Positions 9,316 through 34,328 of a DNA stretch of 64,000 bases are shown in pieces. The notes under the pieces are model-generated. The model saw only the letters and a list, made by a program, of their open reading frames with translations. It was not told the origin of the DNA and ran no database searches. This DNA is from an uncultured Candidatus Binatia bacterium (GTDB lineage Bacteria; Desulfobacterota; Binatia; UBA9968; JAJDTQ01), in assembly GCA_965242525.1 (NCBI GenBank), contig OZ251459.1:736001-800000 (forward strand). Direction: 5' to 3'. Position 1 is the first letter of the stretch. Every line of letters begins with the position of its first letter. A program made the translations under genes and the position numbers.

Positions 9316-10515
9316 ATGAAGATCGACCTACAGATATTGAAGGATGCTCTCAGCGGGACGGCCGCGGCGTTCCGATGCGTGACCGACTATCAGCCGACCG
9401 GTGGACCGGGCGACAAGGTCTTCCCGCCGACCTATGAAGGCGGCAAGTACGCTACCGAGGAGCGTAAGGCTCCGACCGGCGAAGTTCGGCAATGCGTCCT
9501 TTTGGATTCGGTGCAGTCTCAGGCCAACCGCATGGAGCTGGCGTTGTTGGAAGCGCATCGCGCCGGCAAGATCCAGCTTCCCTTGCTGGTGACCCGTTTC
9601 GATCAGGACGAACTGCCCAAGAAGTTCTCGGTGACGAGCCTTGACGCGCCGCATCGAGTGGCGGACGCGCTTTTCCGCGACAGCCTGCTCGGCGGTATGA
9701 GATTCCGCGAGTCACTCAAGGGTGCGGTTCTCGACACCGCTGAGGTTCGCAATGCCACGGGACTGTTCGGGATCTGCCCGACGGCGTTGGTGTTCGGACT
9801 GTGGGACTCCACCGGACCTCGCGGCGGATTGGGCGCCAAGTTCCAGCGCGCGATAGTTTCGGAAATCACGGGCTATGACGCCGTGCCGGGACAGAAGACG
9901 GCTAGCCGCATTGACCCCGCGGGAATTCAGCTCGGCGCCGGTCCATTATATGAGCGCAAATCTGAAAACGACGGTGCTTCACACTGGACCCTGAACGAAA
10001 AGGAGGGCAACGGAAAGCTGAAAAAGACAGGCAGGCCATCGGAGGCGAACCACGGAAACGTTACTCCGAGCATCTCCGAAGGCGGCTTCACCTTATCGAA
10101 GGCACGGCAGACTACCACGTTGTCGCTGGCTGTCTTGCGCCGTCTCCGTTTCCCTCTCAACGGCGCAGCGGACTCGGAGCGCGACACCGATCTAGCAGCG
10201 CGCACCGCGCTGGCCGCGCTGGGGCTGGCCGCCGGAAGCTTGGCGCGGGTCGATACAGACCTTCGTTCCCGCTGCCAGTTGTTCGCCGAACAGGAATCCG
10301 TGTGGCAACTGCTCGACCGCCCCGGGGCTACTCCTCAGGAGTTCGACCTGGATCCCGAAGCTGCACTTCAGTTGTTGGATCAGGCCATCAGCGAGGCCAA
10401 GGACGCTGGCCTGCCGTGGGAGGGTGAGATCGAGATGGTCCCATCTCCCGATCTGGTCGAATTGGTCCGCCGCAGTCAGGAGTTGGCAAGCGCTTCGGAC
10501 GGAGATAACGGCTGA
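9316..10515 (+). CDS. cas7: type I-G CRISPR backbone protein Cas7 (Csb1)
   Basis: KVFPPTY, LLDSVQSQANRME, SLDAPHR..DA, PTALVFG.WDS, LRSRC. Confidence 0.95.
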   Translation: MKIDLQILKDALSGTAAAFRCVTDYQPTGGPGDKVFPPTYEGGKYATEERKAPTGEVRQCVLLDSVQSQANRMELALLEAHRAGKIQLPLLVTRFDQDELPKKFSVTSLDAPHRVADALFRDSLLGGMRFRESLKGAVLDTAEVRNATGLFGICPTALVFGLWDSTGPRGGLGAKFQRAIVSEITGYDAVPGQKTASRIDPAGIQLGAGPLYERKSENDGASHWTLNEKEGNGKLKKTGRPSEANHGNVTPSISEGGFTLSKARQTTTLSLAVLRRLRFPLNGAADSERDTDLAARTALAALGLAAGSLARVDTDLRSRCQLFAEQESVWQLLDRPGATPQEFDLDPEAALQLLDQAISEAKDAGLPWEGEIEMVPSPDLVELVRRSQELASASDGDNG

Positions 10516-15800: not shown

Positions 15801-15849
15801 CGACTGGAGGCGGAGTGAGTGGGAGGAAGCACACGGTGGTGATGAGTGA
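12805..15849 (+). CDS. cas3: type I-G Cas3, SF2 helicase with C-terminal HD nuclease
   Basis: PTASGKT, DEAH, MSAT, QRFGRLNR; C-terminal HDLGKAD, RHE, HHG, RLAD; ATG 12805 overlaps the csb2 end. Confidence 0.96.
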   Translation: MTATDLQATDFREFFTALWDRPPFAWQQALAERVLESDSGGSPWPEAIALPTASGKTACMDVAVFALAAQASRLAQRQTITAPRRIFFVVDRRVIVDEAHERAKRLVKKLERAEDGVLGRVADNLRQIAHGATTGFGGEHPLPLAAHLLRGGMYRSDAWARNPLQPTVVASTVDQIGSRLLFRAYGRGSGTWPIYAGLIANDSLILLDEAHCVQPFLQTLQAVRCFQTWAQDPLRRCFHPVVMSATPPPDLTDRFDDQSGERHDPQHRLGRRQLAHKPAVLQRVEKARGKQATSVFAQALADAARELVDERRRAIVVFVNRVATARETHRLLAADDRDQAVLLTGRMRPVDKDDLVDRLKVLHSDRSGERSLTKPLMVVATQTLEVGADLDFDGLVTECASLDALRQRFGRLNRMGRPIEARAAILVRGDQADATEVEQAGKKKTKEPDDPVYGNALSRTWAWLNQSKDENGEVDFGIAHLDSLLPQGGSLAALNAPSHNAPVMLPAHVDCWAQTSPQPDPSPDVALFLHGLREGAADVQVCWRADVDLTNERAQSDTLESLSLCPPSSSETLPVPIGVFKRWLAGKDMEDDSADLEGVWAGAGTDEEGSSPVAHAVIRWRGAETDHKDVTAKPTDIHPGDVIVIPVDHPGPWRQLGDLPTDLDDVGDAAYRLARAKPILRLHRKLVDAWPVSMATKETAFELLNDLERKYEDDPDEVVGTVDDLLTELSETPETFPGGRSRLFDAARELEAEFSSPKLRPECRIIGGRSLVVVGRRPIPELLQEADHFSDEDDAVASGTSHRDGRPVRLSRHLPGVGEFAGLHAVGCGLPDELVDAVTRAGRLHDLGKADPRFQALLQGGARWLGGEPLAKSFGMPKTSKARLRASGTSRYPKGGRHELLSVRMAESVPALLPERQELRDLTLHLIASHHGHCRPFAPVVCDEQDIPVVFEMQGHRLQWSGATGLERLDSGVADRYWRLVRRYGWWGLAWLEALLRLADWRRSEWEEAHGGDE

Positions 15850-16771
15850 ACCGGATCCGGGTCTATTACTGAAAGGTCTCGATGGCGGCAATCTGCTGGG
15901 GTTCCTCGCATCCATCGGAACGCTACGGGCTGTAACCGAGGCAGACTCTTCGGTGAACTGGCGTATGAGATGGGAAGTGAACGGAGGTTGCTGGTCTCCT
16001 GTTCTCATGGGAGGCGGTTCGCTTACAGAGGATACTTTGATTGATCTACTGGTCCCTGTTCTAAGGCAGGTGAAGATGGATCCACCCCTGCATTCCTACA
16101 AGAACCTGACGATCAACCCTGAAGACTTCCGGGGTGTGGCTCGAGACGCTCAGACCAGAGCGACTTTCACCGACCGACACTGTGCGGATTTCGTTGCCGC
16201 CTTTGGTTGCGACATCCTGTCTGTGCCCGGGAAAGAACCGGGAAATATCCAGGACACTGCCCTCCGAACCATGAGTGGAGCAGGACATCAACACTTCCTT
16301 GATTCCATGCGAGATCTTGCGAAGAAAACCGAACCGGATCATTTGCGTAGTTCGTTATTCGAAACATGGCGATATGCAGACGACAAGCCGAACCTTCGCT
16401 GGGATCCCATGGACGACCGCCGACATGCCCTGCGTTGGAAGGAGCCTTCGGATGATCCCATACGGACGATGCGCGGCGCAAACCGCCTTGCCGTCGAAGC
16501 ACTGCCCTTGCTTCCCACCGCGCCTAGCCAACGCGAACTTCGTACGACCGGCTTCTCGCAACAGCGTGGCGAAGGTGTGTTGTTCTCGTGGCCAATCTGG
16601 AAAGTTCCCTTGAATATTGACATCGTGCGATCTCTGCTGAGTATGGCCGAGCTCAAGAAACCTGAACCGAATCGCGATATTCTCCTGAAGATGGGCGTCG
16701 TGGAGATCTACCGCAGTCAGCGAATTACCAGGGACAAATACCGCAATTTCACACCTGCCGTACCTGTATGA
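15842..16771 (+). CDS. csb3: type I-G short large-subunit protein Csb3 (Cas8g-type), ~309 aa
   Basis: L.GLDG.N.LGFLA..G, LRWDP, GANRLA.EALP, FSWPIW; lies between cas3 and cas4-cas1. Confidence 0.8.
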   Translation: MSEPDPGLLLKGLDGGNLLGFLASIGTLRAVTEADSSVNWRMRWEVNGGCWSPVLMGGGSLTEDTLIDLLVPVLRQVKMDPPLHSYKNLTINPEDFRGVARDAQTRATFTDRHCADFVAAFGCDILSVPGKEPGNIQDTALRTMSGAGHQHFLDSMRDLAKKTEPDHLRSSLFETWRYADDKPNLRWDPMDDRRHALRWKEPSDDPIRTMRGANRLAVEALPLLPTAPSQRELRTTGFSQQRGEGVLFSWPIWKVPLNIDIVRSLLSMAELKKPEPNRDILLKMGVVEIYRSQRITRDKYRNFTPAVPV

Positions 16772-18480
16772 CCCCCAACCAACAACTCTCCCTCGGTTTG
16801 CCTCCATCGCCCGTCCAGGGCGACGTGCCGCTCATTCCGGTTCGGATGATCAACGAATGGGTGTACTGTCCGCGGCTGGCCTTTCTGGAGTGGGTGGAAG
16901 GGGAATGGGCCGATAGTGGCGATACCGCGGAGGGGAAGCGCGCGCACGCCCGGGTGGACGAGGGCGGGGGACGGTTGCCGGATCCTGAAGGCCTTGGTGA
17001 CGACATGGCCCGGGCCAGGGCGGTTACCCTGTCCTCGGAACGCTTGGGGATCATCGCCAAGATGGACGTGGTGGAGGCGGACGAGGGGACGGTCACGCCC
17101 GTGGACTTCAAGAAGGGGAAACGGCCGCACGTGGCCGCGGGCGCCTATGAACCCGAACGCGTCCAGGTCTGTGCGCAGGCCATGATCCTGGAGGACAACG
17201 GCTATGCGGTGGACCGGGGGGCGTTGTGGTACACGGGCTCACGCGAGAAGGTGCCGGTGGTGCTGGACAACGAGCTTCGCGCCCGGACGCTGGATGCGGT
17301 CTCGGGCTTGCGCGGGGCCGCAATCTCGGGACGTCGGCCGCCGCCGCTCGACAACAGCCCCAAGTGCCCGCGCTGCTCGTTGGCGGGCATCTGCCTGCCG
17401 GATGAGACCAACCTGTTCCGCAAGGGCTATCCGCCGCGTCCCCTGAACCCGGCTGACGACCCGGCCCTGCCGCTCTACGTGCAGACGCCCGGCGCGAGGC
17501 TGCGCAAGAGCGGCGAACAGTTGATCGTCGAGGTCGAGGAAGAAAAGGTCGAAGTGCCGATGATCAACGTTTCCCAAGTCGCGCTGTTCGGTCCGGTCTC
17601 GGTCACGACACCGGCGCTGCATGCCCTGATGCGCGACGAAATTCCGGTCTCGTGGTTCTCTACCGGCGGCTGGTTCCTGGGTCACACCTTCGGGACCGGC
17701 AACGGAAACGTGATGGTGCGCGAGGCCCAGTATCGGTTCGCGTTCGACAAGGCCCGCTGCATGGGCTTCTCGCGCGCGCTGGTGGCGGCCAAGGTGCGGA
17801 ACGCCCGCACGCTGCTGCGCCGCAACTGGCGCGCCGACCGGAACGGAGACGACAAGGATGGGACGTTGGCGCGTCTCAGGCGTGTGGCCCAGCGAGCGCC
17901 CTATGCCGACAGCGTCCAGCAACTCCTGGGCATGGAAGGGGAGGGCGCGGCGATCTATTTCGCCAACTTCGAGAAGATGCTTGCGCCAGACGCCGGAGAT
18001 GAGTTTGCCGCGTTCGCCTTCTCGACGCGCAACCGGCGCCCGCCGACGGACCCCGTGAACGCAATGTTGTCACTGGCCTATGCGCTGCTGGCGCGAACCT
18101 TTGCCGCCGCGGTCTCGGCAACCGGACTGGACACCTACATGGGGTTCTACCACCGCCCGCGCCACGGTCGTCCGGCGCTGGCCCTCGACATGATGGAGCC
18201 GTTCCGTCCCCTGGTGGCCGATTCGTGCGTGATCCAGGTCATCAACAACGGCGAGGTCAAGCCGGGCGATTTCATCTTCAACGGCCCGGCGTGCGCCTTG
18301 AAGCCGCGTGGTCGCAAGGCGCTGATCGCCGCCTTCGAGCGCCGCATGGAACAGGAGACCACCCATCCACTCTTCGGCTATCGCGTCTCCATGCGCCGGT
18401 TGATCGACGTCCAGGCGCGGCTTCTCGCCCGGCACCTGCAGGGCGAGATCCCGACCTATCCGCACTATCTCCCCCGGTAA
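16768..18480 (+). CDS. cas1: Cas4-Cas1 fusion
   Basis: Cas4: YCPR, DFKKG, QVCAQ, C..CSL...C; Cas1: EGEGAA.YF, RNRRPP.DP.N..LS..Y, GFYH, ALDMMEPFRP. Confidence 0.97.
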   Translation: MTPNQQLSLGLPPSPVQGDVPLIPVRMINEWVYCPRLAFLEWVEGEWADSGDTAEGKRAHARVDEGGGRLPDPEGLGDDMARARAVTLSSERLGIIAKMDVVEADEGTVTPVDFKKGKRPHVAAGAYEPERVQVCAQAMILEDNGYAVDRGALWYTGSREKVPVVLDNELRARTLDAVSGLRGAAISGRRPPPLDNSPKCPRCSLAGICLPDETNLFRKGYPPRPLNPADDPALPLYVQTPGARLRKSGEQLIVEVEEEKVEVPMINVSQVALFGPVSVTTPALHALMRDEIPVSWFSTGGWFLGHTFGTGNGNVMVREAQYRFAFDKARCMGFSRALVAAKVRNARTLLRRNWRADRNGDDKDGTLARLRRVAQRAPYADSVQQLLGMEGEGAAIYFANFEKMLAPDAGDEFAAFAFSTRNRRPPTDPVNAMLSLAYALLARTFAAAVSATGLDTYMGFYHRPRHGRPALALDMMEPFRPLVADSCVIQVINNGEVKPGDFIFNGPACALKPRGRKALIAAFERRMEQETTHPLFGYRVSMRRLIDVQARLLARHLQGEIPTYPHYLPR

Positions 18481-18485
18481 CCGTC

Positions 18486-18779
18486 ATGGCCAACGAGCGC
18501 CTCTACGTCGTTACCTACGACATCGCCGAGCCGAAGCGATGGCGTCAGGTGTTCAAGACCATGAAGGGCTACGGCCAGTGGCTGCAACTGTCGGTCTTTC
18601 AGTGCCGGTTGACGGCGCGCAGAAGGGCGGAGATGACCGCACGCCTGGAGAACCTCATCCGGCCATCGGATGACCACGTCCTGATCCTCGACCTGGGTCT
18701 CGCCGACCAGGTCCATCCCCATGTGGAAAGCATAGGCAAGGTCTATGAAACGCCCACACGCCAGGCGACCGTCGTCTAA
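18486..18779 (+). CDS. cas2: Cas2
   Basis: YVVTYDI...KRW, LQLSVFQC. Confidence 0.96.
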   Translation: MANERLYVVTYDIAEPKRWRQVFKTMKGYGQWLQLSVFQCRLTARRRAEMTARLENLIRPSDDHVLILDLGLADQVHPHVESIGKVYETPTRQATVV

Positions 18780-18989
18780 CCCGAAAGATGCCGCGCTCCC
18801 CGCGAGTGCTCCATGAACTCCAAAACCCCAAGCAGCGCTCGCACGAGGACTTTCTCTCGAAACATCAGGAGGTTACCGGAGACCGTGACGAACATTGCAA
18901 GGAGAAATCGGGATGATCCGAAGCGACGGAGCTCAGCGCTCGCAATCCAGGGAAATAAGCCAGTCGATGCATAGAGATCGAAAGGAATG
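18780..18989 (+). promoter_or_regulatory. CRISPR leader
   Basis: Non-coding region between cas2 and repeat 1; CAGCGCTCGCA at 18833 and 18934; repeat orientation ending ATTGAAG and degenerate repeats at the far end agree. Confidence 0.8.
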
Positions 18990-21900
18990 GTTTCCGGGGC
19001 GATTGTTGCCCCGGCCTCATTGAAGCGACGCGAACCAGCCCTTCGCAGTCTCCGCACCGACACGCTCGTTTCCGGGGCGATTGTTGCCCCGGCCTCATTG
19101 AAGCATGCGCACCGTCCCCTCTTCCACGAAGTAGAAATGCGGAGGTTTCCGGGGCGATTGTTGCCCCGGCCTCATTGAAGCCGAGTGAGCAACCGGGACC
19201 CCACATCCGGGCCAACAGTTTCCGGGGCGATTGTTGCCCCGGCCTCATTGAAGCCCCGAGCACGGCACCGTGTGGATCCAGATGGTCCTCAGTTTCCGGG
19301 GCGATTGTTGCCCCGGCCTCATTGAAGCGCCGGCACCTTCCCGGTCGCGTCCAGCTCGCACACCGTTTCCGGGGCGATTGTTGCCCCGGCCTCATTGAAG
19401 CAGGCCCTCGATCACGCGGGCGGCCGAGGCCCAGCTCAGTTTCCGGGGCGATTGTTGCCCCGGCCTCATTGAAGCGCCGGCACCTTCCCGGTCGCGTCCA
19501 GCTCGCACACCGTTTCCGGGGCGATTGTTGCCCCGGCCTCATTGAAGCGAGGCCCGGGCCGGTCTCCCCGGACCGCGCTTCGATGTTTCCGGGGCGATTG
19601 TTGCCCCGGCCTCATTGAAGCGCTACTACTGGACGCGCTCCCCGAAGGGGCCGTGGAGTTTCCGGGGCGATTGTTGCCCCGGCCTCATTGAAGCAACTTG
19701 CGGGTGCTGATCGGGGAGCCCTGGCACAACTGTTTCCGGGGCGATTGTTGCCCCGGCCTCATTGAAGCGGCGTGGGCCTCCCCGCGGCCAGGATCAATGG
19801 CCCGTCCAGTTTCCGGGGCGATTGTTGCCCCGGCCTCATTGAAGCGCGTCTAAGGCACGTTCTCGGGGACGGCGCCCGGACGTTTCCGGGGCGATTGTTG
19901 CCCCGGCCTCATTGAAGCTTGGAGTTCCTCGATGAGGCCCGCTCCGTCGCTGCTGGTTTCCGGGGCGATTGTTGCCCCGGCCTCATTGAAGCTCGGGGAC
20001 GGCGCCCGGACCGCGTGACTCCCTCTTGACGGGTTTCCGGGGCGATTGTTGCCCCGGCCTCATTGAAGCTGCTGGTTCGACGAGACGGCGCATCGGTTCC
20101 TCGACGTGTTTCCGGGGCGATTGTTGCCCCGGCCTCATTGAAGCAACCAACCAGGGACCCTCTCCGAAGCCCGCGTCAGGTTTCCGGGGCGATTGTTGCC
20201 CCGGCCTCATTGAAGCCGGTTTCCGTGGGATGTTGTGCGAGGGTTGCGCGGGAAGTTTCCGGGGCGATTGTTGCCCCGGCCTCATTGAAGCGATGGGCGT
20301 CGCCGAGAGCCAGGGGTGGGCCTGGGACAAGGTTTCCGGGGCGATTGTTGCCCCGGCCTCATTGAAGCGAGAAGGGTACGAAGAACCGGCGCACCAGCAG
20401 CGGGGCGTTTCCGGGGCGATTGTTGCCCCGGCCTCATTGAAGCAGGGTAACTCGTCTACTGGGCAAGGACGTAGACGAGTTTCCGGGGCGATTGTTGCCC
20501 CGGCCTCATTGAAGCCGGACCTCTTCCACCAGCCGCTCCAGGGCGGCAGACGTTTCCGGGGCGATTGTTGCCCCGGCCTCATTGAAGCGTCGTTGATCGT
20601 GTTGCGGATGGCGTCCGGCATGATGTTTCCGGGGCGATTGTTGCCCCGGCCTCATTGAAGCTCCCGACGGCATGCTCTGCATCTCACCGCATCGCTCGCA
20701 GTTTCCGGGGCGATTGTTGCCCCGGCCTCATTGAAGCGTGCACTTCATCGCTCTCGACGTTGGTGGAGGCATGAAGTTTCCGGGGCGATTGTTGCCCCGG
20801 CCTCATTGAAGCCCCGGAGACGCAGATTCCCGAAATGGGTATCACCTTGGCGGGTTTCCGGGGCGATTGTTGCCCCGGCCTCATTGAAGCGCGTACGGCC
20901 TTGAGGATTTTGGCCCGATTTGCAATCGTTTCCGGGGCGATTGTTGCCCCGGCCTCATTGAAGCGGGAACTCTTCGGCGGCCTGTGCGAGCTTCCAATCG
21001 TTTCCGGGGCGATTGTTGCCCCGGCCTCATTGAAGCAGGAAGTCCTCGGACCGGCTGGAGGCATCGGGTACTGTTTCCGGGGCGATTGTTGCCCCGGCCT
21101 CATTGAAGCCGCGACTCCTCGCCGGTCCTCGCGGTCCGCCCGCATGTTTCCGGGGCGATTGTTGCCCCGGCCTCATTGAAGCGACGATGGCGCCTCCATG
21201 GATCCGCATGATCCCCTGGGTTTCCGGGGCGATTGTTGCCCCGGCCTCATTGAAGCTAGCCATCTATCGCTAGGTCCGGATGTAGTCATGGATGTTTCCG
21301 GGGCGATTGTTGCCCCGGCCTCATTGAAGCAGCGGGACGGACGGACGGCGCTGCACGGAGTGCGGGGTTTCCGGGGCGATTGTTGCCCCGGCCTCATTGA
21401 AGCACCGGCAAGGTAACCGGACTGCCAACCACGTACGCGCAGTTTCCGGGGCGATTGTTGCCCCGGCCTCATTGAAGCAGCATCACGTTCAGCCCAACGT
21501 TGCTATTCAGGTAGTGTTTCCGGGGCGATTGTTGCCCCGGCCTCATTGAAGCTGGGATTACTGTCTGAAGGGGAACGGGTATCTGCACGTTTCCGGGGCG
21601 ATTGTTGCCCCGGCCTCATTGAAGCTCAACATGGCAACCACCCGGTAACCACCCGGTAACGTTTCCGGGGCGATTGTTGCCCCGGCCTCATTGAAGCACT
21701 GCACGAGAGACCACATCCGCCGTTGCCTTCTCGTCGTTTCCGGGGCGATTGTTGCCCCGGCCTCATTGAAGCCGGGATGATGGGCTTCAGCTTGTCTATC
21801 AACCCCTCCAGTTTCCGGGGCGATTGTTGCCCCGGCCTCATTGAAGCGCGGCGCATATCTGGAGGCGGAATCTGGCGGGTCGGCTGTTTCCGGGGCGATT

Positions 21901-24900
21901 GTTGCCCCGGCCTCATTGAAGCCACGGAACCGCATTGGGTTTTCTACGACGTGAACGAACGTTTCCGGGGCGATTGTTGCCCCGGCCTCATTGAAGCACC
22001 ATCCCCTACTCTCCTTTCCCGTTTCGCCGCCGGAGTTTCCGGGGCGATTGTTGCCCCGGCCTCATTGAAGCACAAGAGATCATAGTGAGAGACACAATAC
22101 TACTGGACAGTTTCCGGGGCGATTGTTGCCCCGGCCTCATTGAAGCTGCAAAGCCCCCATGACGATCCGCCCCCACGCGGGGGTTTCCGGGGCGATTGTT
22201 GCCCCGGCCTCATTGAAGCTGCGCGGTGCCGCTCGAGTCGTACGCCAGCGCCCACAGTTTCCGGGGCGATTGTTGCCCCGGCCTCATTGAAGCAGAGAAA
22301 AGTGATCCACTGGAAACTCCTTCCTCGACCGTTTCCGGGGCGATTGTTGCCCCGGCCTCATTGAAGCGTCAGGAACGGGAAGGCGTCCAGGGCCGCGTAG
22401 TCGGTTTCCGGGGCGATTGTTGCCCCGGCCTCATTGAAGCGTCTCCGCCGACCGCCACCAGCCACAGGCCCGCGGCGTTTCCGGGGCGATTGTTGCCCCG
22501 GCCTCATTGAAGCCGTCGGGCGATCTCCGGAGCGCGCGCGATGTCCCCGGTTTCCGGGGCGATTGTTGCCCCGGCCTCATTGAAGCCCCCGGTTGGTGAT
22601 GTCGATGCGCACCACCACCCCCGTTTCCGGGGCGATTGTTGCCCCGGCCTCATTGAAGCAGGACAACCGGGGACTACGGCGACTGGATCGACATCGCGGG
22701 TTTCCGGGGCGATTGTTGCCCCGGCCTCATTGAAGCCAGGCCAGAGCGGTGAACCGGACGGGCGACGGAGCCGGGTTTCCGGGGCGATTGTTGCCCCGGC
22801 CTCATTGAAGCCGGGCGCCGCCCGCCACCCGCTCCGCTTGAAGTTGGCCTGTTTCCGGGGCGATTGTTGCCCCGGCCTCATTGAAGCGTCGAGGACCTCA
22901 AGCAGGTAGAGGGAGGAACCACATTGGTTTCCGGGGCGATTGTTGCCCCGGCCTCATTGAAGCACCCATTCCTCAAGTATCTTCAAGGGCTGGAAATGCG
23001 TTTCCGGGGCGATTGTTGCCCCGGCCTCATTGAAGCTTCTCGTCCACAACCGCACGGCGCAACACACCGGACAGTTTCCGGGGCGATTGTTGCCCCGGCC
23101 TCATTGAAGCGGGGTCAATGAGGGATGTAATGCAGGTAGATATAATCGTTTCCGGGGCGATTGTTGCCCCGGCCTCATTGAAGCTGCCAGCTGGCTCTGT
23201 GCGTCGATCATCGTGGCCTCCTAGTTTCCGGGGCGATTGTTGCCCCGGCCTCATTGAAGCAACTCATCCCCTGAGGGTCCTGTCGTCGTGAGCGTGAGTT
23301 TCCGGGGCGATTGTTGCCCCGGCCTCATTGAAGCGACTCATCCCCTGAGGGTCCTGTCGTCGTGAGCGTGGTTTCCGGGGCGATTGTTGCCCCGGCCTCA
23401 TTGAAGCTTTGCCTCGGCAAGCGTCTGGCCGCCTACTCCGCTGTGTTTCCGGGGCGATTGTTGCCCCGGCCTCATTGAAGCGAGGCCCGCCGCGGACGTC
23501 CATACGGCCCCGGCCGGGAGTTTCCGGGGCGATTGTTGCCCCGGCCTCATTGAAGCAGCAGCGTTCCCACTCCGGCCGCGGCGCCCGCGAGCCGTTTCCG
23601 GGGCGATTGTTGCCCCGGCCTCATTGAAGCCATCGGCTGACCCAGGCGGCGACGGTGCGGGTGACGGTTTCCGGGGCGATTGTTGCCCCGGCCTCATTGA
23701 AGCGGGGCCGCCGCCTACCGGTCCGGGGGGCGGTGGGGGTGTTTCCGGGGCGATTGTTGCCCCGGCCTCATTGAAGCACGGCAACCGACTCGACAGGCAC
23801 ACGATCCAGTTCGAGTTTCCGGGGCGATTGTTGCCCCGGCCTCATTGAAGCCCTGGCAACCTTTGTCCCAAGTCCACCCCTTCCAAACGTTTCCGGGGCG
23901 ATTGTTGCCCCGGCCTCATTGAAGCCATACTCAGGACGATACAACTTCAATACCCTGTTCCTGGTTTCCGGGGCGATTGTTGCCCCGGCCTCATTGAAGC
24001 GCGACCTCGGGCTCTCCGTCTCTCTCTGCTCTCTCGATGTTTCCGGGGCGATTGTTGCCCCGGCCTCATTGAAGCACGCCGTCCACCGTCCGCGTCCGGG
24101 GCGCGTCCTTCGTTTCCGGGGCGATTGTTGCCCCGGCCTCATTGAAGCCCGGCGCCGGGTCCGCTGGCGGCCGCGGCGCCGCCGAGTTTCCGGGGCGATT
24201 GTTGCCCCGGCCTCATTGAAGCGCTCGGACGATGCCGCTACAGAGTGGGCCAGACTGGAGTTTCCGGGGCGATTGTTGCCCCGGCCTCATTGAAGCATCG
24301 CCCGCGGCGACGTGGTCTACATGTGCATGGTGTTTCCGGGGCGATTGTTGCCCCGGCCTCATTGAAGCATTGCGGATCAGATCCCAGATCGGTTCCGTAT
24401 CCGCGTTTCCGGGGCGATTGTTGCCCCGGCCTCATTGAAGCCTGGCGTATCTCGATTCGGCTCGTGCTGGAGCAGGGGTGTTTCCGGGGCGATTGTTGCC
24501 CCGGCCTCATTGAAGCAACACCTTGACCGTAGCGAGCTGGCGGATGGGAGACGGTTTCCGGGGCGATTGTTGCCCCGGCCTCATTGAAGCGGTCATCCAC
24601 GACAGTGCCTGGCGGACGTACTCTTCGAGTTTCCGGGGCGATTGTTGCCCCGGCCTCATTGAAGCCCACCCGTAGATGTGGGTTCGCGCTCGTTGCTCCG
24701 AGTTTCCGGGGCGATTGTTGCCCCGGCCTCATTGAAGCATACAAGACTGTGACCTCCAACGAGCGACGGACGCCAGTTTCCGGGGCGATTGTTGCCCCGG
24801 CCTCATTGAAGCGCGGTGTTGCTCCACACCCTGCCGCGGCGGAGCTGGAGTTTCCGGGGCGATTGTTGCCCCGGCCTCATTGAAGCAACTCGGGCAGGGC

Positions 24901-27900
24901 CGCGTAGATCTCCCGCAGGTGGTTTCCGGGGCGATTGTTGCCCCGGCCTCATTGAAGCGGCGGGATCGTCGGGTTCGCGGTGGTCGGGTCTTCGGGGTTT
25001 CCGGGGCGATTGTTGCCCCGGCCTCATTGAAGCCGGCGGGCCGGTCCGTGGTGTCGAGACCGGCCCATCGTTTCCGGGGCGATTGTTGCCCCGGCCTCAT
25101 TGAAGCTCGCCCTGCCAGCCTAGGCTAGGCTAGGCGGTGCCCACGCGTTTCCGGGGCGATTGTTGCCCCGGCCTCATTGAAGCAGCGGGTCGTTCACCAC
25201 TCGGACCGGGGCCGCGATGTGTTTCCGGGGCGATTGTTGCCCCGGCCTCATTGAAGCGAGCCCACCCTGGTGTCCGACGAGGACGGACGCCCGGCCAGTT
25301 TCCGGGGCGATTGTTGCCCCGGCCTCATTGAAGCTGGGCGATCTGCACGGCGATCTGGACCATGACCTCCACGTTTCCGGGGCGATTGTTGCCCCGGCCT
25401 CATTGAAGCGACACGATCACAGGCGCGATAGCGAGACTGCGCGACGTTTCCGGGGCGATTGTTGCCCCGGCCTCATTGAAGCGAGGGCGGCTTCCTCCGC
25501 GGCGAGGCGCTGGCGCTCGGGTTTCCGGGGCGATTGTTGCCCCGGCCTCATTGAAGCCCCGGGACTCCAAAGAGAAAGGACATGGGGACGATGGGTTTCC
25601 GGGGCGATTGTTGCCCCGGCCTCATTGAAGCTGCGCGATCTTCTTCACATCGTCGGCGTCCCAAAACTGTTTCCGGGGCGATTGTTGCCCCGGCCTCATT
25701 GAAGCCGGAGACAGGAGGATGCGATATCCGCACTGTCGCGGGCGTTTCCGGGGCGATTGTTGCCCCGGCCTCATTGAAGCCACGTCGCGGAGCACACGGC
25801 CTCCGCGGCAGGCCGCCGTTTCCGGGGCGATTGTTGCCCCGGCCTCATTGAAGCGACATCGGGGAGGGGGGAGCAGACCTGTGCGCCACCGTGGTTTCCG
25901 GGGCGATTGTTGCCCCGGCCTCATTGAAGCGGCACCGGCACGCGGCGCGCCACCATGGCGCTGAGGCGTTTCCGGGGCGATTGTTGCCCCGGCCTCATTG
26001 AAGCAGCCGGCAGCGGTGGTGCTGCTCTGCGGGAGGCCAGTAGTTTCCGGGGCGATTGTTGCCCCGGCCTCATTGAAGCCCACACGGATAGATGTTGCTG
26101 GAGGTGCTCGATCGCGTTTCCGGGGCGATTGTTGCCCCGGCCTCATTGAAGCAATGAGGAATTTGCCAAACGCCTGAAGGAGATAGACAAGGTTTCCGGG
26201 GCGATTGTTGCCCCGGCCTCATTGAAGCTTAGGGTCTGGAAGATGTGCCCGTCAGAGAGGGTCTCGTTTCCGGGGCGATTGTTGCCCCGGCCTCATTGAA
26301 GCATAATGGGGTCCACCACGCTCAGCCGGATGCTCTCCCGGTTTCCGGGGCGATTGTTGCCCCGGCCTCATTGAAGCAGCCTGCAGCGGTGGTGCTGCTC
26401 TGCGGGAGGCCAGTGTTTCCGGGGCGATTGTTGCCCCGGCCTCATTGAAGCTAGCTCGCCTCGACCAGCCGCTGGCGGCAGCGCCCGGGTTTCCGGGGCG
26501 ATTGTTGCCCCGGCCTCATTGAAGCCTCCACCGTGAGGAGCCGCCGCGCAAGATCATCGGCGGGTTTCCGGGGCGATTGTTGCCCCGGCCTCATTGAAGG
26601 TTCGAAAGGTCCACACGCTCCACCTGATGGACCGAGGTTTCCGGGGCGATTGTTGCCCCGGCCTCATTGAAGGGCGCGGCGCTCCTTCTTGCGCCGCGCC
26701 GCCCGCTCCTGTTTCCGGGGCGATTGTTGCCCCGGCCTCATTGAAGGGCCGACAACCTCCGCCCCATCCTTGAACGCAAGGGATGGGTTTCCGGGACGAT
26801 TGTTGCCCCGGCCTCATTGAAGGCGTACCTCCCGCCTGTCCTTCCCAGTAGTGATAAATACCTGTTTCCGGGGCGATTGTTGCCCCGGCCTCATTGAAGG
26901 GTCCTATACGTCTAGTAGCTTCTTCTCTCTCCTTTCTACGTTTCCGGGGCGATTGTTGCCCCGGCCTCATTGAAGGCCGCGCCGCCGAAGGAGCAGTGGT
27001 AAACCAGCGGGGCGAGGTTTCCGGGGCGATTGTTGCCCCGGCCTCATTGAAGGGCCGCGGATGCGTCCGACAGGCCCGCCACCAGCGCGTGTTTCCGGGG
27101 CGATTGTTGCCCCGGCCTCATTGAAGGGGCGTCGGCCTTGTCGATGTCGAGCAGCATGAGGGGGGTTTCCGGGGCGATTGTTGCCCCGGCCTCATTGAAG
27201 GATGATCTGCATCATCTACCTCCTGTCCGGCCTTGTGGGTTTCCGGGGCGATTGTTGCCCCGGCCTCATTGAAGGGACAACAGGCGGACTGGCGAGGCAA
27301 TATCCGTCAGTGGTTTCCGGGGCGATTGTTGCCCCGGCCTCATTGAAGGTGGACGGCGCGCCTTTCGCGGACGGCTGGCACATTGTTTCCGGGGCGATTG
27401 TTGCCCCGGCCTCATTGAAGACTGGAATAGATACAACGCAAGCAGATCCAAGAGCGTTTCCGGGGCGATTGTTGCCCCGGCCTCATTGAAGGGGCGTTGA
27501 GCCTGGCGGAACACGGGCGGCGGGACTCCGGTTTCCGGGGCGATTGTTGCCCCGGCCTCATTGAAGGAACAGGTTTTTGTCGATGGGGGTCATGGGGTCT
27601 CTCGTTTCCGGGGCGATTGTTGCCCCGGCCTCATTGAAGGACGGCGGCGCACAGGCGCAAGGAGGCGGTAGCATGGTTTCCGGGGCGATTGTTGCCCCGG
27701 CCTCATTGAAGGCCCTTCCGTTGCGCCCGCCTACTCAACCGGACGATCCCGTTTCCGGGGCGATTGTTGCCCCGGCCTCATTGAAGGGAGTTCGGCGATA
27801 CGGAAGTCGTCGACCTCGGTGCGGTTTCCGGGGCGATTGTTGCCCCGGCCTCATTGAAGGCCGAGGATGGGGAAGACGCCCAGGCCGAAGCTGACGTTTC

Positions 27901-29413
27901 CGGGGCGATTGTTGCCCCGGCCTCATTGAAGGAGGACGTGCGCCGGGCCAAGCGGATCATGCAGCAGCGGTTTCCGGGGCGATTGTTGCCCCGGCCTCAT
28001 TGAAGGAGGACGTGCGCCGGGCCAAGCGGATCATGCAGCAGCGGTTTCCGGGGCGATTGTTGCCCCGGCCTCATTGAAGTGGCCTGGCGGCCGGCGATGA
28101 TGGACGGGACCGCGGAGTTTCCGGGGCGATTGTTGCCCCGGCCTCATTGAAGTGCCCCACCGTTCTATCGTATCAAGCCTGGCGTCTACGACGTTTCCGG
28201 GGCGATTGTTGCCCCGGCCTCATTGAAGTCGTGGGGGGCTGTGGCGACGGCGGAATACCTGCACCTGTTTCCGGGGCGATTGTTGCCCCGGCCTCATTGA
28301 AGTATTCCGGCAGGGGGGGCAAGGGTCAGGGACCAGGGCGTTTCCGGGGCGATTGTTGCCCCGGCCTCATTGAAGTAAGCTCGACTGGCTCGACTACTTC
28401 GGCGGCTACCTGGTTTCCGGGGCGATTGTTGCCCCGGCCTCATTGAAGTGCCGAAGCCTTGACCTTCCACTACCTCGAAGCCGACGAGTTTCCGGGGCGA
28501 TTGTTGCCCCGGCCTCATTGAAGTAGGTGTACTTACTCCGTAGGTTCGGGTATCACCCGAGTTTCCGGGGCGATTGTTGCCCCGGCCTCATTGAAGACTG
28601 CCGTGGGGTCTGCCGTCTTCGATGGCGTGCGCGGTTTCCGGGGCGATTGTTGCCCCGGCCTCATTGAAGCGGCCAGCCGATACGGGTCCACCACAGCCGG
28701 GTCATCGTTTCCGGGGCGATTGTTGCCCCGGCCTCATTGAAGACCGTTCCTGGGCAATCCAACCAACCGAGATCGGGCCTGTTTCCGGGGCGATTGTTGC
28801 CCCGGCCTCATTGAAGCGGCCAGCCGATACGGGTCCACCACAGCCGGGTCATCGTTTCCGGGGCGATTGTTGCCCCGGCCTCATTGAAGCTCGCCGTGCT
28901 CGCCGGGGAACAGGTCCTCGGTGACGGAGTTTCCGGGGCGATTGTTGCCCCGGCCTCATTGAAGCAGGATCGGGTACAGTTGTGTTGCCTCGCTCATCCC
29001 GCGGTTTCCGGGGCGATTGTTGCCCCGGCCTCATTGAAGCAGGAACGAGATCGCAGAGAAGCGCGAGCGGAAGCACCGGTTTCCGGGGCGATTGTTGCCC
29101 CGGCCTCATTGAAGCTCGTAGTCTACTAGCACTGTATCTCTGCAGATTATCACGTTTCCGGGGCGATTGTTGCCCCGGCCTCATTGAAGCCGAGGGTGTC
29201 TCCGAGCGGCGCCATCTCCATGTGCCCCGTTTCCGGGGCGATTGTTGCCCCGGCCTCATTGAAGCGGTTGCCAGGTAGAAGGTCCTGATGTCCCGCTGAC
29301 GCGTTTCCGGGGCGATTGTTGCCCCGGCCTCATTGAAGCACCGGGAAGGGACGCCTGTGGTAGCGGGAAGGAATGAGTTTCCGGGGCGATTGTTGCCCCG
29401 GCCTCATTGAAGC
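18990..29413 (+). CRISPR. CRISPR array, 141 repeats / 140 spacers (manual count); repeat GTTTCCGGGGCGATTGTTGCCCCGGCCTCATTGAAG(C), 36+1 nt; spacers ~35-41 nt
   Basis: Regular direct repeats with a CCGGGGC/GCCCCGG stem, adjacent to the cas genes. Confidence 0.99.
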
Positions 29414-29874
29414 CGCTGTCGACGGACAGAAGGAATGATTTGGCGCTATGTGGCGTGATGTGGCGCTAAGTGGCGCAGGGGTGGGGAGTTTCGAGGAAAT
29501 GGGCGGGGTTTGGGACGGACAGAATAAATGATCTTTTCGGGTAAAATGGTGTGAAAAAGGGGGTTTTTCGAGGGTTTTTCGGGGGGTTTCGGCCCCCCTT
29601 TTTCGTTGGGGTTTTCGGGGGTCGATGGCGGCGCGAGGTGGATGACGGCGGTGGGGTGGGGTTGGGATGGGTCCGGCAGGGAAGTCGGTGTCAGGGTTGG
29701 GTTGCGGGGATGCGCGGGGGCGGGTTCTGTCCCTGGGGGTGCAGGTCGGGGCGCGGACACGCGGGCGGGGCGCGGCCCTGGGGGATTTGTCAGGACGGCC
29801 ATCGACCGGCGGGGAGGTCGGTCGTCAGGGTTGGGGGCACGGGCATGCGGGGGGTGCGGGCCTGGGGGTGATGG

Positions 29875-30156
29875 TCAGTCGGGGTTGGCGTCGTGGGCGG
29901 CGAAGTACCAGGGGAACTTGGCGCGCCATTGCTCATCGGTCATGTCGTCGAGGGCCTCGAACTCCTCGTCGGACATGGCCTCCAGTTCTTCCATGAGGCG
30001 GACGTTCTCGGGGTGGCGCAGCAGGTACTCGTTGGTGAGGTCCTGGTCCCGCATCCGCTCTCCCAGGTCGGGGGCCGCCTCAGTGCCCCACTCGTGTTCG
30101 TGCTCGGCGAACCACTTCTTCGATTCTTCCACCCAGGCTCTGTCTTCGTCGGTCAT
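29875..30156 (-). CDS. small acidic protein, candidate immunity/antitoxin
   Basis: GGAGG RBS, 93 aa rich in D/E/W, directly downstream of the ART domain. Confidence 0.7.
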   Translation of the reverse strand: MTDEDRAWVEESKKWFAEHEHEWGTEAAPDLGERMRDQDLTNEYLLRHPENVRLMEELEAMSDEEFEALDDMTDEQWRAKFPWYFAAHDANPD

Positions 30157-30211
30157 CGCTTCCTCCTGGGACTGACCGGGCGCTTCGGCCCCCGCTTGGT
30201 CAGGTCGGGTC

Positions 30212-31298
30212 TCACCGGATCACTTCCTTCATTCTGAAGGTGAGAGTATCGCCTTCGCCGCGCTCCATGTCAATGACCTCGAAGGGGGTTCCCGGTGGGA
30301 AGAGGACTTCGTCTTCGTCGTCCCGGGTGAAGGCGGAGATGCTGCTGCCCCTGGACCTCTGCCCCTTGTCGGGCTTTTTCACGATGATCTTGTGCGGCCC
30401 CTGGTAAGCCTTTCCGGGGCTGTTGCTGGTGGACGTGAAGGCGGGGTCGGAGACGATCTTGTCCTTCCTGTCCGTGGCTTCGGCTGCCCGGATGTACTGC
30501 TGGAGGACGGGAGGGGGAAGCTCGGTCCCTCGGAAGACCTGGTCTTTTCGCCGGGGGAGTTTCTGGATGGCGGCTTTCAGGGTGAGGGATCGGTCTCGCA
30601 CAGCCTTCTTGGCCTTGGGATCGACGCCGCGCAGGGCCTGGTTGATGGTGTGGAAGGCCCATTGTCCCTGTCGGATGCTGTAGGCGTAGAGGCCGACGAG
30701 TTCGGTGTCGGTGAGGTTGTAGCGCTGGGCGTCGCGGTCGCGCATGAGTCGGAGGACCTCGGTCCGATAGTCGGTATAGTCGCTGCCCATCTGGCGGACC
30801 ACGCGCTGCTGGAAGGCGGGTTCGAGGCCGGCGGCGCCGACGTTGTGGTCCCAACCGGGGTCGATGCCCCGGGGGACCTGGTGGACCTTGCCGGTGCGCT
30901 TGTTGCGCCAGGGGCGGACGTCTCCGGGTGAGGAGTAGGGCGGGGTTCCCTGGGTGAGGGCGAGGCCGTAGCGTTCGAGGTCGTCGGCGTCCAACTGGGC
31001 CACGGTGCATCGGCAGCCCCAGCCGTTGGGGGGGTAGTGTGTCTCCCACCAGGGGTCGTCGATGGGGAGGACGGTGTCGTGCCAGGCGGCGTGTTCGGGG
31101 CGTGTGGCGCCGTCCTGGACTGCGACGTAGCGGAGGTAGGGCATACGGTCCTTGAGTCGCTGGATGCGGTCCCATTTGCCTGCGGCGTAGGCGGTGGAGA
31201 TGTTGGTGTCGAAGATGGTGCGGAGGCGTCGGAGGGAGGGTTGTCGGCGAAGTGCTGGAAGCCGTGGCCGTCCGCGATGGAGGAGTCCATGGCGGCGC
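30212..31298 (-). pseudogene. 5'-truncated, frameshifted phage Mu gpF-like (MuF) head protein fused to an intact-looking ADP-ribosyltransferase domain; open frame from ATG 31144 (310 aa)
   Basis: RLRTIFDTNISTAYAAG.W, TRPEH..W, YPPNGWGCRC, GIDPGW.HNVG; ART motifs VFRG, FTSTS, EDEVL; the upstream MuF part (AAMDSSIADG.GFQHFADN) is in another frame. Confidence 0.85.
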
Positions 31299-31326
31299 GG
31301 GCTCCTGGCCGCGCCCGAAGGGCAGT

Positions 31327-31433
31327 GTTTCCGGGGACTTGTTGCCCCGGCCTCATCGAGGCCCGGTCTGCGGCGGTCGCTTGGAGGGCGGCGAGGGGTT
31401 TCCGGAGTCCTGCTGCCCCGGCCTCGTCGAAGC
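31327..31433 (+). CRISPR. two degenerate repeats flanking one 35-nt spacer (detached trailer or mini-array)
   Basis: GTTTCCGGGGACTTGTTGCCCCGGCCTCATCGAGGC (31327-31362) and GTTTCCGGAGTCCTGCTGCCCCGGCCTCGTCGAAGC (31398-31433). Confidence 0.9.
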
Positions 31434-31487
31434 GCCCCGCCAGGATGCCCCGCCGGACCGCCCCCCGATCCCCGGAGCGTCCGAGGG

Positions 31488-31542: not shown

Positions 31543-31583
31543 ACGCCGTACCGAGCCGCGTCACTCCACGAGAGGGAGGAACC

Positions 31584-34328
<2,745 letters not shown>

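What the first reader, a model, noticed from the sequence alone, without database searches (positions are those of the whole stretch)
26748..26823. Spacer 105 appears to target the neighbouring MuF remnant exactly at its deletion junction, and its 3' repeat is mutated
Seen: spacer 105 (26748-26786) is GCCGACAACCTCCGCCCCATCCTTGAACGCAAGGGATGG, which translates ADNLRPILERKGW. The MuF remnant (minus strand, 31251->31239) reads TTC-GCCGACAACC, a TTN PAM plus the first 10 spacer nt, encoding ...QHF-ADN, and then jumps frame into LRRLRTIFDTN. From recall, MuF proteins continue F...L.P.L...GWW at this point, so the spacer seems to preserve the deleted sequence. The following repeat 106 has G10->A (26796), breaking the hairpin stem; it is the only internal repeat variant I noticed in 141. 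A 10-nt match alone is weak, but PAM, reading-frame continuity, junction position and repeat mutation together are persuasive. Inference: a self-targeting event escaped twice, by protospacer deletion and by damage to the crRNA 3' hairpin.
Basis: partly seen in the sequence, partly recalled or inferred. Interest (0 to 1): 0.85.

Follow-up and report, generated by a model that had tools for sequence, protein, structure and literature searches.

The report
CRISPR spacer matching a deleted self-target
One memory unit in a very long bacterial CRISPR array matches a phage-derived toxin gene lying next to the array, and exactly that stretch of the gene has been deleted in this strain, a natural record of the immune system turning on its own genome and the cell escaping.

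Summary
The array (18990-29412, 141 repeats) belongs to a complete type I-G system. Spacer 105 (26748-26786) translates to ADNLRPILERKGW. The closest relatives of the neighbouring MuF-ADP-ribosyltransferase remnant read ...QHFADNLRPILERKGWWGEKLV...QLGSLRRLRTIF (13 of 13 in P0121 and P0124). The window keeps TTC plus the first 10 spacer bases (31251-31239) and then lacks 88 nt. Contigs from 3 of 4 other sequencing runs laid on the locus carry exactly "88 letters between" 31238 and 31239. Two runs carry the deleted form. The 10-nt match alone is at chance level; the protein-level continuation and the population data make the case.

TTC is a valid I-G PAM, all cas genes are open, and no other spacer matches the genome. 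The most likely reading is a self-reactive spacer whose target was removed by deletion (about 0.75).

Repeat 106 (G10A, 26796) is the only change in the 36-nt core of 141 repeats. It weakens the hairpin from -16.3 to -9.1 kcal/mol, but whether it was selected is unproven (about 0.45).

This is a clear new example of a known phenomenon. Repeat position 37 also varies, in blocks along the array.

The parts
9316..10515 (+). cas7g / csb1
   Evidence: NCBIfam TIGR02570 type I-G Cas7g, E 3.3e-18
10515..12818 (+). csb2 (Cas5-Cas6 fusion, crRNA-processing subunit)
   Evidence: NCBIfam TIGR02165, E 1.1e-91; Pfam Cas_GSU0054
12721..15849 (+). cas3g helicase-nuclease (ORF start uncertain)
   Evidence: NCBIfam TIGR02621, E 2.3e-214, model 1-854 of 854
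15755..16771 (+). cas8g (large subunit)
   Evidence: PADLOC Cas8g CAS-I-U effector_LS, E 3.6e-94; NCBIfam NF049934
16768..18480 (+). cas4-cas1 fusion
   Evidence: Pfam Cas_Cas4 + Cas_Cas1 in one ORF
18225..18779 (+). ORF holding cas2 (domain in its C-terminal part)
   Evidence: Pfam CRISPR_Cas2 at aa 93-158
18780..18989 (+). leader (about 210 nt between cas2 and the first repeat)
   Evidence: Sequence; position as in G. sulfurreducens I-U, whose leader is 205 bp (PMC6547450). Inferred.
18990..29412 (+). CRISPR array, 141 repeats and 140 spacers
26711..26747 (+). repeat 105 (consensus core; position 37 = G, as in the whole block of units 103-122)
26748..26786 (+). spacer 105, translates to ADNLRPILERKGW
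26787..26822 (+). repeat 106 with G10>A at 26796 (A.C mismatch in the hairpin stem)
29877..30156 (-). 93-aa ORF directly downstream of the toxin gene; candidate immunity protein
   Evidence: No Pfam family. 7 homologue clusters at 72-89% identity, 3 of them on contigs of the same length as contigs bearing MuF-ART proteins. Function inferred.
30212..31238 (-). MuF C-terminal part + ADP-ribosyltransferase domain (remnant, distal piece, frame -1, stop included)
   Evidence: Pfam Phage_Mu_F model positions 32-112, ADPrib_exo_Tox, ART; tblastn
31239..31251 (-). retained TTC PAM + first 10 nt of the protospacer; deletion junction lies between 31239 and 31238
31240..31299 (-). MuF remnant, proximal piece (RAAMDSSIADGHGFQHFADN, frame -2); MuF homology begins here, and the first 55 aa of full-length relatives are absent from the genome
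31327..31360 (+). degenerate CRISPR repeat (30 of 34 aligned positions identical, 1 gap)
31398..31432 (+). second degenerate CRISPR repeat (28 of 36 identical, 1 gap), 71 nt after the first

Best explanation
A type I-G CRISPR-Cas system acquired spacer 105 from a MuF-ADP-ribosyltransferase (polymorphic toxin) gene. The source was either an infecting relative of the phage or the truncated copy of that gene lying 4.4 kb downstream, beside the array's old end. The spacer has the sense-strand orientation and a TTC PAM, so its crRNA could direct Cascade-Cas3 against the resident copy.

Cells survived because an 88-bp deletion removed protospacer bases 11-39 plus 59 further bases. Only the PAM and 10 bases were left, too little for an R-loop. 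The spacer therefore preserves 29 bases that the chromosome has lost.

After spacer 105 was integrated, the repeat on its 3' side acquired G10>A. That repeat supplies the hairpin by which Csb2 holds and cuts this crRNA, and the change weakens it. It may be a second, spacer-specific attenuation, or a neutral change.

Shown: the match, the PAM, the deletion and its being derived, and the repeat change with its predicted effect on folding. Inferred: that targeting happened and that it selected the deletion and the repeat change.
For: - Type I-G set, all open: Cas7g, Csb2, Cas3g, Cas8g, Cas4-Cas1, Cas2.
- Spacer 105 equals P0121 and P0124 at 13/13 residues, right after FADN. All 11 close MuF-ART proteins hit spacer 105, and none of the other 139 spacers scores below E 0.46.
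- The remnant is otherwise uninterrupted: 341 aa ungapped, no stop, 94-96% identity.
- Three of the 4 runs laid (X10, X1, X5, from three studies) have a contig with '88 letters between' 31238 and 31239. X11 (record 16, 0 differences) and X10 (record 10) carry the deleted form. Only 4 of the 11 listed runs were laid.
- TTN upstream of the protospacer is the I-G PAM, and all four TTN variants allow interference (PMC6547450, passages).
- No other spacer matches the 4.23-Mb genome by more than 19 contiguous bases.
- G10>A is the single change in 141 x 36 repeat bases. A single random change would fall on the repeat 3' of this spacer with probability 1/141.
- Repeat hairpin energy falls from -16.3 to -9.1 kcal/mol.
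- In the crRNA-105 unit the canonical stem has probability about 0.01, against 0.66-0.88 with the consensus base. The median over all 140 units is 0.95.
- Csb2's Cas6 domain binds the 3' hairpin tightly and stays on it (PMC9638904, passages).
- All younger repeats (1-105) are consensus, so the change arose after spacer 105 was integrated. This follows from repeat duplication at the leader.
Against: - The DNA of the 29 missing spacer bases was never seen in any target, so identity is at protein level only.
- An 88-bp deletion placed at random in the roughly 1173-nt intact remnant would overlap the 39-nt protospacer with probability about 0.12. That is not negligible.
- Wild-type I-G Cas3 in E. 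coli gave long bidirectional deletions (17 of 18 survivors). Small deletions came with helicase-dead Cas3 and had 2-11 bp microhomology (PMC10482374, passages). Here the deletion is small and the junction shows no shared letters ('both' = 0).
- No Ku was found in the genome.
- If the deletion sufficed, the repeat change needs no selection.
- Eight of 140 crRNA units are predicted to misfold (probability below 0.5), and seven of them have consensus repeats. Predicted misfolding is therefore not specific to this unit.
- It is unknown whether strains with the intact target carry spacer 105.
Confidence: 0.75

Rival explanations
1. Ordinary anti-phage spacer plus unrelated decay. Spacer 105 was taken from an infecting phage with a near-identical MuF-ART gene when the resident remnant had already lost the 88 nt, or the remnant lost them later for unrelated reasons. 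No autoimmunity occurred, and the repeat change is neutral.
For: - Full-length relatives more than 90% identical exist in other assemblies (P0124 446 aa, P0130 444 aa), so a phage source is available.
- A chance overlap of deletion and protospacer has probability about 0.12 (own calculation).
- The remnant is already N-terminally truncated, so it is decaying.
Against: - The 88-nt loss is the only indel or stop in 1085 nt of remnant.
- Relatives 89-100% identical keep intact 388-aa ORFs from the same Met (P0001, P0121, P0003, P0135).
- The deletion starts inside the protospacer, at base 11.
- The single core-repeat mutation of the array lies next to this very spacer (1/141).
- The two coincidences together come to about 0.001.
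Confidence: 0.2
2. One break, two outcomes. A spontaneous double-strand break in the remnant, close to the array, fed fragments to Cas4-Cas1-Cas2 and was itself repaired with an 88-bp loss. The spacer would then be a by-product of the break and not its cause.
For: - The remnant lies beside the array.
- The deletion junction has no microhomology, as expected for end joining after resection.
- That spacer uptake favours DNA ends is recalled from the literature and was not checked here.
Against: - The protospacer straddles the left breakpoint: 10 bases are retained and 29 are lost. It must therefore have been copied from an intact template, not from the excised or resected piece.
- The correct PAM and orientation fit normal Cas4-guided uptake.
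- This reading does not explain the repeat change.
Confidence: 0.04
3. Chance resemblance: the 10-nt match is a coincidence and the spacer has nothing to do with MuF.
For: 10-mer matches are abundant: 44 in the 1.9-kb segment and 1608 in the rest of the window.
Against: 13/13 in-frame residues in P0121 and P0124, directly continuing the retained FADN codons. An 88-nt insertion at precisely this junction in other strains.
Confidence: 0.01

Closest known systems
Self-targeting CRISPR spacers tolerated through target or array mutations (survey of Stern et al. 2010, seen here only as cited in the review PMC6990116: section 13 read whole, other passages)
   Same: A spacer matches the host chromosome in a prophage-derived gene. 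The escape classes listed there include target mutation or deletion and 'mutated adjacent repeats'. Both kinds of change are present here.
   Different: - Here the target is deleted, so no self-match remains in the genome. The relation shows only through homologues and other strains.
- Both the pre-deletion and post-deletion alleles are seen in public runs.
- The system is type I-G. The two literature searches listed no natural I-G self-targeting case; they were not exhaustive.
Pectobacterium atrosepticum type I-F chromosomal targeting (Dy et al. 2013 and Vercoe et al. 2013, PMC3630108: search listing only, plus the description in PMC6990116 section 13)
   Same: A type I system with a natural self-matching spacer made harmless by a change at the target. 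Engineered self-targeting gave deletions that removed the protospacer.
   Different: There the natural escape is a PAM mutation, and the engineered escapes are large island deletions or loss of cas genes. Here the PAM is intact and 88 bp are lost.
Type I-G genome targeting in E. coli (PMC10482374, passages)
   Same: Same subtype. Chromosomal targeting is toxic, and survivors carry deletions at the target, including small ones of 24-324 bp.
   Different: Small deletions there needed helicase-dead Cas3 and had 2-11 bp microhomology, while the wild type gave deletions of 10 to more than 55 kb. Here cas3g looks intact and the junction shows no microhomology.
Heterologous autoimmunity (bioRxiv 10.1101/2021.01.04.425308, search listing and start of abstract only)
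   Same: The idea that a spacer taken from a phage cross-reacts with similar host DNA.
   Different: That work is a theoretical proposal. This would be a concrete candidate case, if the spacer came from a phage.
MuF polymorphic toxins of temperate phages (PMC5576092, search listing and start of abstract only)
   Same: A MuF (Phage_Mu_F) domain followed by a C-terminal toxin domain (here an ADP-ribosyltransferase), with a small downstream ORF as candidate immunity gene.
   Different: The copy here is a stand-alone fragment lacking the first 55 or so residues and the rest of the phage. It sits between the array's last repeat and two decayed repeats.

Membership tests
Type I-G (formerly I-U) CRISPR-Cas | Signature genes cas3g, cas8g, cas7g (csb1), csb2 (cas5-cas6 fusion) | tested here: met
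   NCBIfam TIGR02621, TIGR02570, TIGR02165; PADLOC Cas8g, E 3.6e-94. TIGR04113 (csx17) gave no match, but its control rang nowhere, so that search is uninformative.
Type I-G (formerly I-U) CRISPR-Cas | Cas4-Cas1 fusion and Cas2 next to a leader and array | tested here: met
   Pfam Cas_Cas4 + Cas_Cas1 in one 570-aa ORF, and Cas2. The array starts 210 nt after cas2.
Type I-G (formerly I-U) CRISPR-Cas | Palindromic repeat of 36-37 nt giving an 8-nt 5' handle and a 3' hairpin | tested here: met
   9-bp predicted hairpin, -16.3 kcal/mol, z -2.96. The repeat ends ..ATTGAAG(C). Actual processing was not measured.
Type I-G (formerly I-U) CRISPR-Cas | 5'-TTN PAM on the protospacer strand | tested here: inconclusive
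   The only protospacer found (spacer 105) has TTC. One case only; no protospacer was found for the other 139 spacers.
Self-targeting spacer with escape | The spacer matches a sequence of the host's own chromosome | tested here: inconclusive
   In this genome only the PAM + 10 nt remain. The full match is inferred from homologous proteins (13/13 aa) and from the 88 extra letters in other strains. The DNA of those letters was not shown by the tool.
Self-targeting spacer with escape | Interference machinery present, so that the match would be harmful | tested here: met
   All cas ORFs are open and full length against their models. 104 younger spacers show continued adaptation. Activity itself was not measured.
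Self-targeting spacer with escape | A change at the target or in the crRNA that abolishes targeting | tested here: met
   The 88-nt deletion removes protospacer bases 11-39. G10>A lies in the 3' flanking repeat. Loss of targeting is inferred, not assayed.
MuF polymorphic toxin | Phage_Mu_F domain fused to a C-terminal toxin domain | tested here: met
   Pfam PF04233 (model positions 32-112 only), PF03496 and PF01129. Full-length relatives are 444-448 aa.
MuF polymorphic toxin | Encoded in a temperate phage next to head-morphogenesis genes | tested here: not met
   No other phage genes flank it. It lies between the CRISPR array and a class II ribonucleotide reductase gene. It is a fragment, not a prophage.
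MuF polymorphic toxin | Cognate immunity gene downstream | tested here: inconclusive
   The 93-aa ORF 29877-30156 is conserved (7 clusters, 72-89% identity). It apparently shares contigs with MuF-ART genes, judged by equal contig lengths in 3 cases. No family and no functional test.

The most novel reading that the evidence does not exclude
The MuF-ART toxin gene and its small partner ORF may not be mere debris. They may be a captured toxin-immunity module lodged inside the CRISPR array's old end, between the last perfect repeat and two decayed repeats.

The module is kept as an open 388-aa reading frame in several strain lineages. It would then act as a built-in self-target: every spacer taken from related phages risks autoimmunity. 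This lineage resolved that in two steps, a hairpin mutation that silences one crRNA and then a target deletion that also kills the toxin gene.
Probability: 0.12. Interest if true: 0.7.

Novelty: new member of a known kind. Interest (0 to 1): 0.5.

Why it matters
Natural CRISPR autoimmunity is usually inferred from a surviving spacer-target pair. Here the target is gone and the spacer is its fossil, while sister strains still carry the intact allele, so both the 'before' and 'after' states are available.

This gives a concrete case in the least-studied type I subtype with which to test several questions:
- how costly cross-reactive spacers are;
- what kind of repair yields small deletions under wild-type Cas3g;
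- whether a single stem mismatch in one repeat can switch off one crRNA of an array.

It also shows that screens for exact self-matches miss resolved self-targeting events.

Tried and rejected
- **Chance match.** Rejected, although the 10-nt match alone is at chance level.

- **DNA of the intact protospacer.** Not obtained.
  - A degenerate pattern covering the spacer and the homologues' peptide found 0 stretches in metagenome contigs and 0 in viral contigs.
  - Megablast of the whole array against 50,697 phage records found no match.
  - The 160 MuF loci from genome contigs and viral contigs are at most 62% identical, and no spacer matches them beyond 19-22 nt.
  - Relatives: 41 genomes searched and 28 genus genomes. 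The best other match is 61-66% identical.
  - Read laying reports '88 letters between' but does not print them.

- **Looking for spacer 105 in other strains through spurious ORFs called across arrays.** 35 array-derived proteins share the repeat, but 0 of 35 hold the spacer-105 peptide or the G10A peptide. This gives no information either way.

- **The same repeat in relatives.** Found in 0 of 27 other genus genomes, so synteny of the array's end could not be compared.

- **csx17 model TIGR04113.** No match, and the control rang nowhere, so the search is uninformative. PADLOC then identified Cas8g.

- **PAM-derived position 37.** I first thought the base after the 36-nt repeat came from the PAM. 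Rejected, because it varies in blocks along the array.

- **An almost empty array in run X5.** The X5 contig appears to run leader-like sequence, one repeat, then trailer (tables 5c and 7). Assemblers can collapse arrays, so I draw no conclusion.

- **Parts of the stretch without cover in X10 or X11.** No conclusion drawn.

- **The search of earlier findings.** Returned nothing.

- **** timed out and was redone more simply.

- **Supplementary files** of the cited papers were not consulted. They might hold I-G repeat-mutant or PAM data bearing on the hairpin claim.
Full report
**1. What is there**

The window holds one very long CRISPR array on the + strand, 18990-29412. It has 141 copies of a 36-nt repeat and 140 spacers. 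It is the only array with this repeat in the 4.23-Mb genome.

Directly upstream, on the same strand, lie these genes:
- cas7g/csb1 (9316-10515)
- csb2 (10515-12818)
- cas3g (12721-15849)
- cas8g (15755-16771)
- a cas4-cas1 fusion (16768-18480)
- cas2 (ending at 18779)

This is a complete type I-G (formerly I-U) system. All ORFs are open and match their models over their length.

The leader is the roughly 210 nt between cas2 and repeat 1. That is the layout described for the Geobacter sulfurreducens system (PMC6547450, passages). Spacer 1 is therefore the youngest, and spacer 105 is old.

**2. The observation**

140 of 141 repeats equal the consensus over 36 nt. Only repeat 106 differs, G10>A at 26796.

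On the minus strand, 31251-31239 reads TTC GCCGACAACC. The next base differs from the spacer.

By itself this is nothing. The 140 spacers share 44 exact 10-mers with the 1.9-kb segment 29413-31326, 7 of them at a spacer start, and 1608 with the rest of the window. GCCGACAACC occurs 21 times in the genome.

**3. Why it is nevertheless real**

The ORF 30212-31249 (-) carries the C-terminal two thirds of a Phage_Mu_F domain (model positions 32-112) followed by an ADP-ribosyltransferase domain.

I searched its first 130 residues against the large protein collection and read the members of the four nearest clusters. This gave relatives 84-100% identical over that MuF part.
- The full-length forms (P0124 446 aa, P0130 444 aa, P0004 448 aa) and the 388-aa forms (P0001, P0121, P0003, P0135) all continue after ...GHGFQHFADN with LRP(I/T)L(E/A)R(K/A)GWWGEKLVRDP.TGKMVRAQLG.
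- They then read SLRRLRTIFDTN, which is where the window's second frame picks up.
- P0121 and P0124 read ADNLRPILERKGW, the exact translation of spacer 105.

In a tblastn of 11 such proteins against all 140 spacers, all 11 hit spacer 105 (E 7e-6 to 3e-3). Nothing else scored better than E 0.46.

Against the genome, P0124 maps as follows:
- aa 56-75 map to 31299-31240 (frame -2).
- aa 106-446 map to 31237-30215 (frame -1, 94% identity, ungapped, no stop).
- aa 73-85 map to the spacer.
- aa 1-55 map nowhere.

The remnant thus lacks 30 codons less 2 bases, that is 88 nt, beginning after the tenth base of the protospacer.

**4. Independent confirmation from other strains**

Eleven public runs hold part of 29413-31700. 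I laid four of them (X10, X11, X1, X5; four studies) on that stretch.
- Three of the four (X10, X1, X5) contain a contig with 'skips 0, 88 letters between' 31238 and 31239. This is exactly the predicted size and place.
- X11 has a 587-nt contig without a single difference that bridges the junction in the deleted form.
- X10 has in addition a 76-nt contig of the deleted form, so both alleles occur in that run.
- The contigs with the 88 letters are the more divergent ones (about 95-97% identical).

The deletion is therefore a derived state of the window's lineage. The tool does not print inserts longer than 40 letters, so the DNA of the missing part was not seen.

**5. Is it a competent target?**

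The spacer has the sense orientation of the gene, and the retained flank is 5'-TTC.
- TTN is the type I-G PAM, and TTA, TTT, TTC and TTG all license interference in G. sulfurreducens (PMC6547450). PMC9638904 states the same.
- No other spacer matches the genome by more than 19 contiguous bases.
- The genome holds no second copy of this gene.

With an intact cas operon, an ancestral remnant carrying the full protospacer would have been attacked. The deletion leaves the PAM plus 10 bases. By established knowledge of type I systems this cannot support the full R-loop needed to activate Cas3.

**6. The repeat change**

G10>A puts an A.C mismatch into the middle of the 9-bp stem. The repeat's predicted energy falls from -16.3 to -9.1 kcal/mol and is no longer better than shuffles.

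Folded as a mature unit (handle, spacer, 29 nt of the next repeat), crRNA 105 does not form the canonical hairpin at all. The neighbouring units 104 and 106 do.

Pair probabilities of the canonical stem are about 0.01 in the window. They are 0.66-0.88 when the consensus base is put back in silico. The median over all 140 units is 0.95.

In the Thioalkalivibrio I-G system, the Cas6 domain of Csb2 binds this hairpin with nanomolar affinity. It cuts downstream of the hairpin to give the 8-nt handle and stays bound at the 3' end (PMC9638904). A weaker hairpin should therefore lower the yield of crRNA 105, and the 5' processing of crRNA 106.

New repeats are copied from the leader-proximal one, and repeats 1-105 are consensus. 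The change must therefore have arisen after spacer 105 was integrated. One random change would land on this repeat with probability 1/141.

Against over-reading this:
- Eight of 140 units are predicted to misfold, and seven of them have consensus repeats.
- If the deletion came first, the repeat change would be neutral.

**7. Mechanism and its weak points**

I take the chain to be:
1. A cross-reactive or self-derived spacer is acquired.
2. Autoimmunity follows.
3. Cells in which the target is deleted survive, possibly after, or together with, attenuation of the crRNA.

A random 88-nt deletion in the roughly 1173-nt intact remnant would overlap the 39-nt protospacer with probability about 0.12. 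Combined with 1/141 for the repeat, chance is near 0.001.

The weak points are these:
- Wild-type I-G Cas3 in E. coli produced long bidirectional deletions (17 of 18 survivors). Small deletions of 24-324 bp appeared with helicase-dead Cas3 and had 2-11 bp microhomology (PMC10482374). Here the junction shows no shared letters, and the genome has no Ku.
- A possible reason for the small size is the neighbourhood. A class II ribonucleotide reductase gene starts about 330 nt beyond the PAM, and the array lies on the other side, so larger losses may be lethal or costly. This is inference.
- A pre-existing spontaneous deletion selected by targeting is equally possible. The review PMC6990116 (section 13) discusses this for other systems.
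- Whether the spacer came from the remnant or from a phage cannot be decided. Full-length relatives more than 90% identical exist (P0124).

**8. Comparison with what is known**

Self-matching spacers and their neutralisation are known. The routes include target mutation or deletion, loss of the spacer, cas mutations and 'mutated adjacent repeats' (PMC6990116, citing Stern et al. 2010, which I did not read).

This is a new, unusually well documented instance, not a new kind of system.
- It is in type I-G.
- Both alleles are present in public data.
- Two candidate escape changes lie on one spacer-target pair.

Because the target is deleted, a screen for exact self-matches would not have found it.

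**9. Other things seen**

- **Position of the remnant.** The remnant and a conserved 93-aa ORF downstream of it (29877-30156, -) lie between repeat 141 and two decayed repeats in array orientation (31327-31360 and 31398-31432, 71 nt apart). The ORF has 7 homologue clusters at 72-89% identity. Three of them sit on contigs of the same length as contigs holding MuF-ART genes. The phage fragment thus sits inside the old end of the array. The X1 and X5 contigs show the same arrangement.
- **Repeat position 37.** The base after the 36-nt repeat is C before spacers 1-102, G before 103-113 and 115-122, T before 123-129, A before 114, 130 and 132, and C before 131 and 133-140. The G. sulfurreducens 'repeat PAM' is AGC, which fits a 37-nt repeat ending ..GAAGC here. 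The blocks look like a record of successive changes in the template repeat, or of a mosaic array. Spacer 105 lies in the G block.
- **Duplicated spacers.** Spacers 5 and 7, 121 and 122, and 131 and 133 are identical. Spacers 58/59 and 95/100 differ by 2 bases.

**10. Verdict**

Deletion as escape from self-targeting has probability about 0.75. The repeat change as a selected second escape has probability about 0.45. Novelty: new member of a known kind. Interest: 0.5.

Noticed in passing
window 29413-31432: The MuF-ART fragment and its partner ORF lie between the array's last perfect repeat (29377-29412) and two decayed repeats in the same orientation (31327-31360 and 31398-31432, 71 nt apart). 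A 1.9-kb phage fragment thus sits inside the old end of the array. Contigs of runs X1 and X5 show the same arrangement. How it got there is unexplained.
   Followed up: partly
window 18990-29412 (base after each 36-nt repeat): Repeat position 37 varies in blocks: C before spacers 1-102, G before 103-113 and 115-122, A before 114, 130 and 132, T before 123-129, C before 131 and 133-140. It looks like a time record of changes in the leader-proximal template repeat, or a mosaic array. It is not PAM-derived.
   Followed up: partly
window 19328-19511, 27932-28043, 28670-28853: Identical spacers: 5 = 7, 121 = 122, 131 = 133. Near-identical pairs, 2 mismatches each: 58/59 and 95/100.
   Followed up: no
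window 29877-30156 (-): A 93-aa acidic ORF with a ribosome-binding site lies directly after the toxin gene. It has no Pfam family and 7 homologue clusters at 72-89% identity. It apparently sits on the same contigs as MuF-ART genes and is a candidate immunity protein.
   Followed up: partly
proteins P0001, P0121, P0003, P0135, P0131 (other assemblies): Four relatives 89-100% identical start at the same Met as the window's truncated copy and are open for 388 aa. P0131 has a different N-terminal junction. The truncated toxin gene may be maintained, not merely decaying, in sister lineages.
   Followed up: no
window 29436-29446, 29366-29376 and 18979-18989: A motif GAAGGAATGA / GAAAGGAATG occurs at the end of the leader just before repeat 1, at the 3' end of spacer 140, and 24 nt after repeat 141. 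This may be a trace of a duplicated leader-repeat junction.
   Followed up: no
window 10515-12818: Csb2 is 767 aa, longer than the 492-position NCBIfam model. It has a weak phosphoribosyltransferase-like stretch at aa 340-390 (Pfam E 3.8e-4, below the cut-off), possibly an inserted domain.
   Followed up: no
loci L002-L014, L039-L044 (other genomes): Some metagenome-assembled genomes carry 4-8 copies of related MuF genes per genome.
   Followed up: no
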